Positions 59,405-62,080 of a stretch of 64,000 bases of DNA are shown here, one piece after another. The notes under the pieces are model-generated. The model was not told the DNA's origin. It ran no database searches and worked only from the letters and a program-made list of their open reading frames with translations. The translations under genes and the position numbers were made by a program. This DNA is from the human T2T-CHM13v2.0 reference genome, Homo sapiens. The DNA lies in assembly GCF_009914755.1 (NCBI RefSeq), contig NC_060946.1; one strand, written 5' to 3'. Numbering within the stretch: the first letter of the stretch is position 1; each line of letters opens with the position of its first letter.

Positions 59405-59943
59405 CCAACAAAGCAATATTTTTTTTACAATTAACCTAAAACAGATTGATAGTGTTGAATTGACACCCTAATCATTGCTTGGGATGTTAAGGGCAAAACA
59501 GGAAACACCTGAGCAAGCATGGGGGATTTAATATAAATCCTGGGAACTTGGGAAGGCAATACAAAGCCTTAAGATGCAATTAGTTTCATGACCATTTAGG
59601 TCCAGAAATAGCCATGGTTGAAGTCAAGGATAATGAAGCTTGGGACATGTGATCCAGGGAAAGCTAAGTATATGGATCAAGGCAGGGTGGGAAATAAAGG
59701 AGTGGGTATTACCTTCCAAGGTGGGTTGTTTTGAGGGCTCTGTTAGGGGAGGAGAAAACTGAAGCTGATATTAGAACCACAAATATTAAGGTCAAAAAAA
59801 AAAAAATAAACTGGAGATCTATATGTCTCAAAGAGAGCTTGTGAAGTTCCATAGCCATGAAATGAATGACTAAATGTGCCCACTGAGTTGTCAGCTTCTC
59901 GTTGGTTGTTTCTCATTTTTTCTGGAATGTCCTGGTGCCCCAG

Positions 59944-61214
59944 GTTTACCACAATATACAGGAGAAATAAGTGAAATGACAAAATGCCCCTGTCCTGATA
60001 TAGAAAGGTCAGCCTTTACCGTGAAGCTCAGTGGAAAACTTCCTCTTCCTTCCAAGCCCATCATCTTCACAGGGGTCCTGTACAATGCCCAGAGGGATTT
60101 AAAGGAGGCCATGGGAGTCTTTGCTTGCAGGGTGCCTGGGAATTACTACTCCAGCTTTGATGTTGAGCTGCATCATTGCAAGGTGAATATTTGGCTAATG
60201 AGGAAGCAAATTTTGGCTAATGAGGAAGAAATTTCTAAGCAGCAAAGCATTCAAGAGGTGACTTGGGTGCTGTTAAAGGCATTCAGTTTCATAAGGGAGG
60301 CAGAGCATAAGAGTTCAGAAAATTTGCACCCTGACAATGTGATAAAAAAGAAAAACCCATTTTCTGAGGGGAAATTCAAGCTGGCTGCAGAAATTTGCAT
60401 ATGTAATGAGGAGCTGAATGTTAATCCTCAAGACAATGGGGAAAATATCTCCTGGACATGTCAGAGGTCTTCACAGCAGTCCATCAAATCACTGGCCTGG
60501 AGGCCTAGGAGAAAATGGTTTTGTGGGACAGGCCCAGGGTCCCTGTGCTGTGTGCAGCCTAGAGACTTGGTGCCCTGTGTCCCAGTTAATTCACCTGTGG
60601 CTTCAGAGGGTGCAAGCCCCAAGCCTTGGCAGCTTCCAAGTGGTGTTGAGCCTGTGGGTGCAAAGAAGTCAAGAATTGAGGTTTGGGAACCTCCAATCAG
60701 ATTTCAGAAGATATATGGAAACCCCTGGATGCCCAGGCAGAAGTTTGCTGTAGGGGCGGGGTCCTCATGGAAAACCTCTGCAAGGGTAGTACAAAAGGGA
60801 AATGTTGGGTGGGAGCCCCCACACAGAGTCCCCAGTGGGGCTCCATCTAGTAGAGCTGTGAGAAGAAGTCCACCATCCTCCAGACTCCAGAAGGGTAGAT
60901 CCACTGACAGCTTGCAGCATGTGCCTGAAAAATCCACAGACACTCAGTGCCAGCCTGTGAAAGCAGCAGGGATGGAGTCTGTACCCTACAAAACCGTAGT
61001 GGCAGAGCTGACCAAGACCGTGGGAATCTACCTCTTGCATTATCATGACCTGGACGTGAGACATGGAGTCAAAAGAGATCATTTTGGAGCTTTAAGATTT
61101 GACTGCCCCACTGGATTTCGGACTTATATGGGGCCCGTACACCTTTGTTTTGGCCAATTTTTTCCATTTGGAACTGCCGTATTTACCCAATGCCTGTACC
61201 TCCATTGTATATAG
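59944..61214 (+). pseudogene. Terminal exon: collagen end + N-terminal half of an HP-20-like gC1q domain fused in frame to THE1 internal ORF (pseudogene or chimeric gene)
   Basis: Within ORF 59874-61214 (446 aa). KCPCPDIERSAFTVKLSGKLPLPSKPIIFTGVLYNAQRDLKEAMGVFACRVPGNYYSSFDVELHHCKVNIWLMRK has the gC1q motifs (SAF, PIIF..VLYN, GVF.C.VPG.Y) and matches HP-20 as recalled (KCPC-RERSAFTVKFSGRLP...PGNYHFSFDVELYHCKV). From about 60225 it reads as MaLR internal ORF (EEISKQQSIQEVTWVLLKAFSF). In-frame phase-1 acceptor CAG| at 59943. Confidence 0.8.
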
Positions 61215-61724
61215 GAAGTAACTAACTTGCTTTTGATTTTACAGGCTGATAGGCATAAGGGACTTGCCTTGTCTCGGATGAGACTTTGGACTGAGGACTT
61301 TTATTTTTTTATTTTTTTTTTTTGAGACAGAGTCTCACTCTGTCATCCAGGCTGGAGGGCAGTGGGGCAATCTCAGCTCACTGCAACCTCCACCTGCTAG
61401 GTTCAAGTGATCCTCCTGCCTCAGCCTCCCAAGTAGCTGAGATTACAGGCATGTGACACCACGCCTGGCTATTATTTGTATTTTTAGTAGAGACAGGGTT
61501 TCACCATGTTGGCCAGGCTGGTCTCAAACTCCTGACCTCAGGTGATCTGCCCACCTCGGCCTCCCAAACTGCTGGGATTGCAGGCATGAGCCACCACACC
61601 TGGCCAGGACTGTGGACTTTTGAGTTAATGCTGAAATGAGTTGAGACTTTGGGGGATGGTTTGGAAGGCATGAATTGGTTTTGAAACGTGAGGACATGAA
61701 GTTTGGGAGGGGCCAGGGGTGGAA
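60225..61724 (+). mobile_element. THE1 (MaLR) internal region, 5'-truncated, with an Alu inserted
   Basis: Characteristic gaagaaatttctaagcagcaaagcattcaagaggtgac; ends in the polypurine tract gggaggggccaggggtggaa directly before an LTR; no 5' LTR. Confidence 0.9.
61303..61605 (-). mobile_element. Alu (S-type) inside THE1 internal region
   Basis: Antisense Alu with approximately 15-bp TSD ggactg(a/t)ggactttt. Confidence 0.92.
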
Positions 61725-62080
61725 TGATATGATTTGGCTGTGTCCCCACCCAAATCTCATCTTGAATTCCCACGTGTCATGGGAGGGACACAATGGGAGG
61801 TAATTGAATCATGAAGGCAGGTCTTTCCCATGCTGTTCTCGTGATAGTGAATAAGTCTCACAAGATCTGATGGTTTCAAAAAATGGGAGAGTCCCTGCAC
61901 AAGTTCTCTCTTTGCCTGATGCCATCCATGTAAGACATCACATGCTCCTCCTTGCCTTCCACCGTGATTGAGAGGCTTCCCCAGCCACGTGGAACTGTAA
62001 GTCCAATTAAACCCTTTTCCTTTATAAATTACCCGGTCTTGGGTATGTCTTTATCAGCAGTGTGAAAACAGACTAATACA
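61725..62080 (+). mobile_element. THE1 3' LTR
   Basis: TGATATGATTTGGCTGTGTCCCCACCCAAATCTC...GACTAATACA, with TG/CA ends. Confidence 0.92.
62006..62011 (+). terminator. LTR poly(A) signal ATTAAA, candidate 3' end of the chimeric transcript
   Basis: ATTAAA at the usual THE1 LTR position, in sense with the fused ORF; use is not demonstrated. Confidence 0.5.

What the first reader, a model, noticed from the sequence alone, without database searches (positions are those of the whole stretch)
59874..62080. In-frame host-retroelement chimera: half gC1q + about 330 open THE1 codons + LTR poly(A)
Seen: no stop from the C1q part through about 330 codons of THE1 internal sequence, in what would be the last exon (so not an NMD target), followed by a sense LTR with ATTAAA. 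Knowledge: THE1 internal regions carry a long ORF of unclear function, usually broken in genomic copies tens of millions of years old. Against the recalled consensus, this copy has an in-frame deletion near VPCVPVNSPVASEG and one late frameshift near GPVHLCF. Inference: a candidate chimeric gene that could route a MaLR protein to secretion, although chance openness is plausible.
Basis: partly seen in the sequence, partly recalled or inferred. Interest (0 to 1): 0.8.

Follow-up and report, generated by a model that had tools for sequence, protein, structure and literature searches.

The report
Dead HP-20 gene fused to THE1
The long open frame is real, but it is the broken human remnant of the hibernation-protein gene HP-20 joined by an old deletion to a truncated THE1 retroelement, and nothing indicates that it makes a working protein.

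Summary
A 446-codon stop-free frame (59874-61214, +) runs from half a gC1q domain through 329 THE1-internal codons. A sense THE1 LTR with ATTAAA follows.

The interpretation as a chimeric gene is not supported. The C1q part is the human relic of HP-20, the hibernation-associated plasma protein (61-78% identical to named HP-20 proteins; at most 41% to any human paralogue). It is one of five dead HP-type C1q relics in about 56 kb. It has lost the ancestral start codon, 5 of 10 collagen glycines and the C-terminal ~60 residues of gC1q.

The THE1 copy lacks its 5' LTR and about 363 nt of internal sequence. The joint carries a 22-nt tandem duplication and GGAAG microhomology, so a deletion or template switch made the fusion, not a simple insertion.

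The THE1 frame is that family's ancestral putative-gag frame. Three of 29 other copies keep 296-324 open codons. Our copy's pairwise dN/dS (0.72) ranks 13th of 30, with differences spread evenly over codon positions. Chance openness is the best reading. Primate orthologues, RNA and ribosome data could not be checked here.

The parts
57447..57555 (+). Relic of the HP-20 exon that encoded the end of the signal peptide and the start of the collagen-like stretch. A GT donor follows at 57556.
   Evidence: tblastn of HP-20 proteins: P0006 residues 9-45 match 57450-57560 at 54% identity, with similar matches for P0008 and P0009. Alignment. There is no in-frame ATG at the orthologues' Met position; the nearby ATG at 57437 is out of frame and meets TAG after two codons.
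59874..61214 (+). The 446-codon open frame (stop included). It begins with ATG followed by a hydrophobic stretch encoded by former intron sequence.
59944..60211 (+). Relic of the HP-20 last exon: the decayed end of the collagen-like stretch plus the N-terminal ~60% of gC1q.
   Evidence: Pfam C1q profile 1-79 of 127. 61-78% identity to named HP-20 proteins. Orthologues continue for about 58-60 further residues that are absent here.
60190..60233 (+). Junction: a 22-nt tandem duplication (17 nt exact). The second copy ends in GGAAG, shared with the THE1 sequence that follows.
   Evidence: the repeat finder; alignment of the junction with 29 other THE1 copies.
60225..61302 (+). THE1 (MaLR) internal region, 5'-truncated. 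It carries the open remainder of the family's single ORF (putative gag) up to the stop at 61212-61214.
   Evidence: 80-84% identity to 29 other copies. The homologous point lies a median of 364 nt after the 5' LTR in 27 of 29 copies.
61303..61606 (-). Alu inserted into the 3' part of the THE1 internal region, flanked by a ~14-nt duplicated target.
   Evidence: other copies align to 61150-61302 and resume at 61607, with about 14 nt matched on both sides.
61607..61724 (+). Last part of the THE1 internal region.
61725..62081 (+). THE1 3' LTR in sense orientation, with ATTAAA at 62006-62011. An L1-like fragment follows from 62082 (L1 identity recalled, not tested).

Best explanation
This is a genomic fossil, not a gene.

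**Host part.** It is the human unitary-pseudogene remnant of HP-20. HP-20 is one of the liver-secreted C1q-like hibernation proteins (HP-20, HP-25, HP-27) that other placental mammals, including strepsirrhine primates, still encode. In the lineage leading to humans the whole HP cluster between SYN3 and LARGE1 died; five C1q relics remain.

**The fusion.** A THE1 element lay downstream in the same orientation. A deletion or replication template switch then removed four things: the 3' half of the HP-20 last exon, the intervening DNA, the THE1 5' LTR and the first ~363 nt of the THE1 internal region. The event left a 22-nt tandem duplication and a GGAAG microhomology at the joint.

**The open frame.** The joint happens to place the HP-20 frame in register with THE1's own ancestral ORF (putative gag). 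In this copy that ORF has not yet acquired a stop. A 1-nt deletion at 61139 has already shifted its end.

**Shown and inferred.** Shown here: the homologies, the truncations, the missing pieces, the junction structure, and the lack of coding constraint compared with other copies. Inferred: the order of events, the deletion mechanism, and the timing in the simian stem.
For: **HP-20 identity**
- The best named hits of the C1q part are HP-20-like Dasypus (78% identity), HP-20 homolog Vicugna (66%) and HP-20 Marmota (61%).
- All human paralogues are at most 41% identical.
- In tblastn, HP-20 proteins score best on this relic. HP-25-type proteins score best on the four others at 68.0-68.6, 87.1-89.8, 101.0-101.5 and 113.1-113.7 kb, all of which carry stops or frameshifts.
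- The fused database model P0005 shows HP-20 followed in tandem by the same neighbour type.

**Decay of the host part**
- 5 of 10 Gly positions of the collagen-like stretch are lost, while all six full-length orthologues keep an unbroken Gly-X-Y.
- There is no in-frame ATG at the orthologous start.
- The C-terminal ~60 gC1q residues are absent. tblastn at E up to 1 with seven query proteins (five of them HP-20 orthologues) found no match to those missing C-terminal residues outside the four other relics, and nothing at all between 60.25 and 68 kb.

**Deletion rather than insertion**
- The 5' LTR and a median of 364 nt of internal sequence are missing (27 of 29 copies informative).
- The minus-strand LTR at 59043-59405 is only 75.6% identical to the 3' LTR. 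That is no closer than unrelated copies, which average 77-78%.
- A 22-nt duplication sits at the joint.

**Chance openness**
- 3 of 29 other copies keep 296-324 open codons in the same 1010 nt, and 2 of 29 have no stop at the homologous codons.
- 32 of the 120 listed database proteins from other copies are 300 aa or longer.
- Mean pairwise dN/dS of our copy is 0.72, rank 13 of 30 (range 0.56-0.88). Its dN of 0.162 is among the highest. Its differences fall 1400/1275/1359 on codon positions 1/2/3.

**Phylogenetic context**
- Named HP-20 homologues include Nycticebus and Microcebus, but no simian, among 43 hits.
- THE1 is simian-specific, and its internal region has one putative gag ORF (PMC10735291, passages).
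Against: - Ours is the longest open run of the 30 copies, and none of the other 29 is open over the full homologous length. From the mean of 2.1 stops and about 2.7 own frameshifts per copy, roughly 1% of copies would be this open. In-frame fusion costs a further factor of three.
- The frame starts with ATG plus a hydrophobic stretch that could pass for a signal peptide.
- The N-half of gC1q is no more diverged from orthologues (62-79%) than functional orthologues are from each other (61-86%).
- A database protein model (P0004, 99% identical) uses the 57555/59944 junction, so some pipeline treated these exons as coding. It leaves the exon at 60215, before THE1, and two of its junctions are not canonical in this assembly.
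- The 29 comparison copies are the best-scoring of 40 scored out of 7653 first-look candidates. They are biased towards well-kept copies.
- Nei-Gojobori dN/dS drops codons with gaps or stops and ignores CpG effects.
Confidence: 0.87

Rival explanations
1. A real primate-specific chimeric protein-coding gene. An mRNA from 59874 (unspliced) or through the 57555/59944 junction encodes a secreted half-C1q fused to a THE1 gag-like protein, polyadenylated in the THE1 LTR.
For: - The 446-codon frame is intact, with ATG and a hydrophobic N-terminus.
- Its stop lies in what would be the last exon, with ATTAAA downstream.
- Its openness is in the top ~1-3% of copies.
Against: - A gC1q cut after ~60% of the domain (Pfam profile 1-79 of 127; residues 4-72 of the 137-residue adiponectin chain) lacks the last strands of the jelly roll (structure recalled) and cannot trimerise as C1q domains do.
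- The collagen glycines have decayed and the ancestral start is lost.
- The THE1 part shows no constraint and has a late frameshift.
- No full-length match appears among the listed database proteins.
- RefSeq annotates nothing here (hub table).
- The ATG context has T at -3 and T at +4, which is weak (Kozak rule recalled).
Confidence: 0.03
2. A transcribed but non-coding pseudogene or lncRNA exon. The relic exons are spliced into a long non-coding transcript and the ORF is irrelevant.
For: - P0004 maps to window exons 47618-47686, 49606-49740, about 57446-57555 and 59944-60215, then to 87126-87215 outside the window.
- Several of these exon ends have good splice signals.
- LINC01640 lies upstream on the same strand (hub table).
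Against: - P0004 has no name or source species.
- Its junctions 49740 to 57446 and 60215 to 87126 are not canonical GT-AG in the required frame in this assembly. That is typical of homology-projected models rather than of RNA evidence.
- No RNA data could be consulted.
Confidence: 0.1
3. Simple insertion: a THE1 element integrated directly into the HP-20 last exon and the rest of the exon still lies beyond it.
For: The THE1 is in sense orientation and immediately abuts the exon.
Against: - There is no 5' LTR, and about 363 nt of internal sequence are missing.
- The only nearby LTR is on the other strand and unrelated, at 75.6% identity.
- The sequence after the 3' LTR is repeat DNA, not C1q.
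- No C-terminal HP-20 gC1q half was found in the 124 kb searched.
Confidence: 0.03

Closest known systems
HP-20 (hibernation-associated plasma protein HP-20; chipmunk, marmot, cow, lemur and others), a C1q/TNF-family member
   Same: - 61-78% identical over the preserved part.
- Same two-exon layout, with a phase-1 Gly split in the collagen-like stretch.
- Same CPC motif before gC1q.
- Tandem neighbours of HP-25/27 type.
- PMC5345028 (passages) describes HP-20, HP-25 and HP-27 as proteins with N-terminal Gly-X-Y repeats and a C-terminal globular domain, present also in non-hibernators such as cow.
   Different: The human copy lacks the start codon, half of its collagen glycines and the C-terminal ~60 residues of gC1q. 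It runs into THE1 sequence instead.
Unitary pseudogenes and lineage-specific HP gene loss (tree squirrel HP-25 pseudogene, Kojima et al. 2001; title seen only in the reference list of PMC10468594)
   Same: A once-functional single-copy gene disabled in one lineage while orthologues stay intact elsewhere.
   Different: Here the disabling lesions include a large deletion fused to a retroelement, and the whole cluster of five genes is dead. Whether the human loss is already in print could not be settled. Seldin et al. 2014 (PMC4117459) is not held. Searches found no statement in the listings and passages that I read.
THE1 / ERVL-MaLR elements with a single internal ORF (putative gag)
   Same: The internal region is 80-84% identical to other copies, is read in the same frame, and has a 3' LTR with ATTAAA. 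PMC10735291 (passages) states that MaLR internal regions hold one ORF for a putative gag, and that THE1 is simian-specific and more than 40 million years old.
   Different: It is 5'-truncated by an LTR plus about 363 nt and is interrupted by an Alu. No Pfam hit and no PDB sequence hit was found for the ORF.
Domesticated transposon-host fusion genes (SETMAR, PEG10, Arc, syncytins; recalled, not tested)
   Same: A host exon read in frame into a mobile-element ORF.
   Different: Those genes show conserved ORFs under purifying selection and have expression evidence. Here the selection test was neutral, and expression and orthologue conservation could not be tested.

Membership tests
C1q domain (Pfam PF00386, gC1q jelly roll) | Significant sequence match to the family profile | tested here: met
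   E 8.8e-11, 42.6 bits against a cut-off of 23.7. Matches adiponectin, collagen VIII/X and C1q chains in the PDB.
C1q domain (Pfam PF00386, gC1q jelly roll) | Complete domain (all strands of the ~130-residue beta sandwich) | tested here: not met
   Only profile positions 1-79 of 127 are present. Orthologues have about 58-60 more residues. No C-terminal half was found in the 124 kb searched.
HP-20 orthologue | Closest to HP-20 rather than to HP-25/27 or other C1q paralogues | tested here: met
   HP-20 proteins give the top scores on this relic, and human paralogues reach at most 41% identity.
HP-20 orthologue | Lies in a tandem cluster with HP-25/27-type genes | tested here: met
   Four further HP-25-type relics lie within 56 kb. 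The fused model P0005 shows the same order. Synteny in other species was not examined directly.
HP-20 orthologue (functional) | Start codon, signal peptide and an uninterrupted Gly-X-Y stretch | tested here: not met
   No in-frame ATG at the orthologous position. 5 of 10 Gly positions are replaced (A, R, E, Q, S).
THE1 / MaLR LTR element | Internal region homologous to the family, flanked by two LTRs | tested here: inconclusive
   The internal homology and the 3' LTR are present. The 5' LTR and about 363 nt are absent. It is a truncated member. The subfamily (THE1 or MST) was not assigned.
Domesticated or chimeric coding gene | Purifying selection on the ORF after the fusion | tested here: not met
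   Pairwise dN/dS of 0.72, rank 13 of 30 copies. Differences are even over codon positions. This is an indirect test between paralogous copies, not between orthologues.
Domesticated or chimeric coding gene | ORF conserved in orthologous loci of other primates | not testable with these tools
   No primate genomes are held. Only unnamed partial translations of the same locus (P0002-P0004) were found.
Domesticated or chimeric coding gene | Transcription and translation evidence | not testable with these tools
   No RNA-seq, Ribo-seq or proteomics tool is available. RefSeq lists no gene here (hub table). No full-length protein is listed among the 120 best database hits.

The most novel reading that the evidence does not exclude
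The 446-codon frame is translated in some tissue where THE1-rich loci are active, such as germ line, placenta or tumours. The product would be a primate-specific secreted protein: an accidental signal-like N-terminus, a non-folding half of HP-20 gC1q as a linker, and a THE1 gag-like body. That would be the first host-fused MaLR gag protein.
Probability: 0.03. Interest if true: 0.6.

Novelty: new member of a known kind. Interest (0 to 1): 0.18.

Why it matters
As a chimeric gene it would matter, because no MaLR gag-derived host protein is known to me. The evidence points the other way.

What remains is modest but useful.

- An unannotated stretch of chr22 between SYN3 and LARGE1 can now be labelled as the dead human HP-20/HP-25-type hibernation-protein cluster. 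It holds five relics, one of them fused to THE1.
- The THE1 junction offers a dated marker, because THE1 is simian-specific. It can be used to ask when the liver-to-brain HP system was lost in primates.
- It is also a cautionary example. Long open frames in THE1 internal regions are common enough that an in-frame fusion alone is weak evidence for a gene.

Tried and rejected
- **Minus-strand LTR as the missing 5' LTR.** I tested whether the LTR at 59043-59405 was moved there by inversion. Rejected: 75.6% identity to the 3' LTR, no closer than unrelated copies, and the flank shows no internal sequence.
- **Missing C-terminal gC1q half.** I searched the window plus 60 kb downstream and found none. 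A weak adiponectin-type hit at 104643-104777 (-) was not confirmed by any HP protein and looks Alu-derived, so I dropped it from the relic count.
- **Fold of the THE1 ORF.** A single-sequence AlphaFold2 model gave mean pLDDT 40.7 and pTM 0.20. That is too poor for a fold search, so none was run.
- **PDB sequence search with the THE1 part.** 0 hits at E up to 10.
- **Pfam on the upstream exon frame.** Nothing found.
- **Literature on a human HP pseudogene.** Searches, and passages of PMC10468594, PMC2939893, PMC12328237, PMC9028843, PMC4633868 and PMC8618301, gave no statement about the human locus. Seldin et al. 2014 is not held.
- **P0002 and P0003 as expression evidence.** I considered these ENA contig translations of the same ORF. 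Both match the locus, then switch to about 60-80% identity inside THE1, as chimeric short-read assemblies would. I did not use them.
- **Start-codon loss.** My first reading, a single ATG to ATT change, could not be fixed by the protein alignment alone. I claim only that no in-frame ATG is present there.
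Full report
**1. The observation**

The + strand has a stop-free frame from 59874 to 61214 (446 aa plus stop). It starts with ATG directly after a TAA.

Pfam finds a C1q domain (PF00386, E 8.8e-11). ORF residues 47-120 cover profile positions 1-79 of 127, so only about 60% of the domain is present. By sequence, the closest solved structures are adiponectin and then collagen X/VIII and C1q chains. The match stops at about residue 72 of a 137-residue adiponectin globular domain.

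A DNA search of the window's own genome with 60160-61290 found 7653 first-look candidates. Forty were scored, and 29 other loci were fetched. Homology to them begins at 60222-60225, at 80-84% identity. This leaves 329 THE1 codons before the stop.

- a 33-nt in-frame gap at 60593;
- a 3-nt gap near 60509;
- a 1-nt gap at 61139, where 28 of 29 copies have a base;
- a sense LTR at 61725-62081 with ATTAAA at 62006.

An Alu on the minus strand (61303-61606) splits the 3' end of the internal region.

**2. What the C1q part is**

A protein search with the 89 residues of 59946-60212 gave these best named hits:

| Hit | Identity |
|---|---|
| HP-20-like, Dasypus | 78% |
| HP-20 homolog, Vicugna | 66% |
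| HP-20, Marmota | 61% |

In the human genome every other C1q-family locus is at most 41% identical. By position these appear to be COL8A1, COL10A1, ADIPOQ, C1QTNF7, OTOL1 and others; those gene names are my inference from coordinates. The relic is therefore not a copy of a living human gene.

A second search with the armadillo protein returned 43 hits. Named HP-20 homologues came from rodents, artiodactyls, whales, Xenarthra, Afrotheria and the strepsirrhine primates Nycticebus and Microcebus. No named simian protein appeared.

PMC5345028 (passages) describes HP-20, HP-25 and HP-27 as homologous proteins with N-terminal Gly-X-Y repeats and a C-terminal globular domain. It says they are also present in non-hibernators, with liver expression in cow.

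**3. The neighbourhood**

I fetched 60 kb downstream of the window and ran tblastn with paralogues and HP proteins. This showed four more C1q relics, in window numbering:

| Position (kb) | Strand | Note |
|---|---|---|
| 68.07-68.54 | + | |
| 87.13-89.77 | + | contains a 40-nt unit repeated 8.1 times at 89203-89529 |
| 101.02-101.47 | + | |
| 113.16-113.65 | - | |

All four carry stops or frameshifts, and all score best with HP-25-type proteins. A sixth weak hit at 104.6 kb was not confirmed.

An unnamed fused database model (P0005) has a complete HP-20 followed by the same neighbour type as the 68-kb relic. The locus is therefore the dead human HP cluster.

**4. How dead the HP-20 relic is**

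- The upstream exon relic (about 57447-57555) and the last exon join in phase 1 across a Gly codon. This matches the orthologues' continuous sequence.
- Of the 10 Gly positions of the collagen-like stretch, 5 are now A, R, E, Q or S. The six full-length orthologues in the alignment keep every Gly.
- Where orthologues start with Met, the human frame has no ATG. The nearby ATG at 57437 is out of frame and hits TAG after two codons.
- After ...WLMRKQI the orthologues continue for about 58-60 residues (...KVWLEAEVETEEP...IYFSGFL). These are absent here and were found nowhere in the 124 kb searched.
- The preserved N-half is not unusually diverged. It is 62-79% identical to orthologues, while orthologues are 61-86% identical to each other. 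This fits slow neutral decay in primates but does not by itself prove relaxation.

**5. How the fusion arose**

In 27 of 29 other copies, the point homologous to 60225 lies a median of 364 nt downstream of a 5' LTR. Here the LTR and those ~363 nt are missing.

The only nearby LTR (59043-59405, minus strand) is 75.6% identical to the 3' LTR. Both LTRs average 77-78% identity to the LTRs of unrelated copies. It is therefore an independent solo LTR.

The joint itself is a 22-nt tandem duplication, 60190-60211 and 60212-60233, with 17 nt exact. The first copy is HP-20 coding sequence (WLMRKQ, supported by orthologues). The second ends in GGAAG, where THE1 homology takes over.

I infer a deletion by microhomology-mediated joining, or by replication template switching, between the HP-20 exon and a THE1 lying downstream in the same orientation. 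The alternative of a simple integration into the exon is contradicted by the missing LTR, the missing internal sequence and the missing exon half.

THE1 is simian-specific (PMC10735291, passages), so the event happened after the split from tarsiers. That agrees with the absence of named simian HP-20 proteins. The order of gene death and deletion is not resolved.

**6. Is the open frame more than chance?**

The frame is the family's own. Other copies are open in the same register, and their frame continues upstream of our breakpoint. PMC10735291 calls it a putative gag ORF.

*Open runs.* In the homologous 1010 nt, the longest open run is 332 codons in ours. In the 29 others the median is 141 and the top values are 324, 322, 296 and 261.

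*Disabling events.* The others carry a mean of 2.1 stops at homologous codons (2 of 29 have none) and 3.7 frameshifting indels relative to ours, one of which is ours. A rough Poisson estimate gives about 1% of copies as open as ours. With thousands of copies in the genome (7653 first-look candidates), dozens are expected.

*Database support.* 1213 predicted proteins of 180-576 aa match the THE1 part at E of 1e-10 or better. Of the 120 listed, 32 are 300 aa or longer. All are unnamed, 'hypothetical' or 'uncharacterized', and none has a Pfam domain.

*Selection.* The direct test is negative. Mean pairwise Nei-Gojobori dN/dS of our copy against the others is 0.72, rank 13 of 30 (range 0.56-0.88). 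Its dN of 0.162 is among the highest. Its differences fall 1400/1275/1359 on codon positions 1, 2 and 3.

*Caveats.* The 29 copies are the best-scoring ones, so they are biased towards well-kept copies. Codons with gaps or stops were dropped. The comparison is between paralogous copies, not orthologues.

**7.

- The unspliced frame has its own ATG at 59874 and a hydrophobic N-terminus encoded by former intron sequence. The ATG context is weak (T at -3 and +4; rule recalled).
- An unnamed database model (P0004, 224 aa, 99% identical) maps to 47618-47686, 49606-49740, about 57446-57555, 59944-60215 and then 87126-87215. Two of its junctions are not canonical in the needed frame in this assembly, so it looks like a homology projection.
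- Two ENA contig translations (P0002, P0003) start at the same ATG but diverge inside THE1 in the way chimeric assemblies do.
- No full-length 446-aa protein is among the listed hits, and RefSeq annotates nothing here (hub table).

**8. Verdict**

The structure is real and was well read. The function is not supported. The best explanation (0.87) is a unitary HP-20 pseudogene fused by deletion to a truncated THE1, whose ancestral ORF is still open by chance.

Orthologous primate sequence, population variants, RNA, ribosome and peptide data would settle the rest. None of these could be consulted here.

**9. What led nowhere**

- The single-sequence fold of the THE1 ORF was too poor to use (pLDDT 40.7).
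- The PDB sequence search gave nothing.
- The paper most likely to state the human HP gene status (Seldin et al. 2014) is not held.
- Five literature searches gave no statement on the human locus in what I read.

Noticed in passing
Outside the window, in window numbering: 68065-68540 (+), 87126-89773 (+), 101022-101469 (+), 113160-113648 (-) = loci L044-L048: Four further dead C1q genes of HP-25/27 type, all with stops or frameshifts. With the HP-20 relic they form a five-member dead hibernation-protein cluster between SYN3 and LARGE1. By the hub's coordinates, the relics from 87 kb onward lie inside the 3' end of LARGE1.
   Followed up: partly
L045:5203-5529 (window numbering 89203-89529): A 40-nt unit repeated 8.1 times (87% matches) inside the gC1q exon of the third relic. 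It expands one beta-strand-coding segment into a minisatellite.
   Followed up: partly
window 59043-59405 (-): A solo THE1/MST-type LTR on the minus strand in the former HP-20 intron. It is only 75.6% identical to the 3' LTR of the fused element, so it is an independent insertion.
   Followed up: yes
window 47618-47686 and 49606-49740 (+): Two short open exons with good splice signals. The first has an ATG. They form the 5' end of the unnamed database protein model P0004 and have no HP-20 homology. They may be lncRNA exons.
   Followed up: partly
window 60560-60625 and the homologous stretch of L002-L030: The stretch of THE1-int where our copy has its 33-nt gap is a deletion hotspot. 9 of the 29 other copies carry their own, different deletions there.
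   Followed up: no
proteins P0060 and P0130: THE1-ORF translations are filed in public databases as hypothetical proteins of a yeast (Hanseniaspora uvarum) and a mould (Rhizopus delemar), on contigs of about 1-1.5 kb. This is most simply primate DNA contamination in those assemblies.
   Followed up: no
window 62082-62500 (+): The sequence directly after the THE1 3' LTR looks like an L1 fragment (recalled resemblance, not tested). No THE1 target-site duplication can be checked because the 5' end is gone.
   Followed up: no
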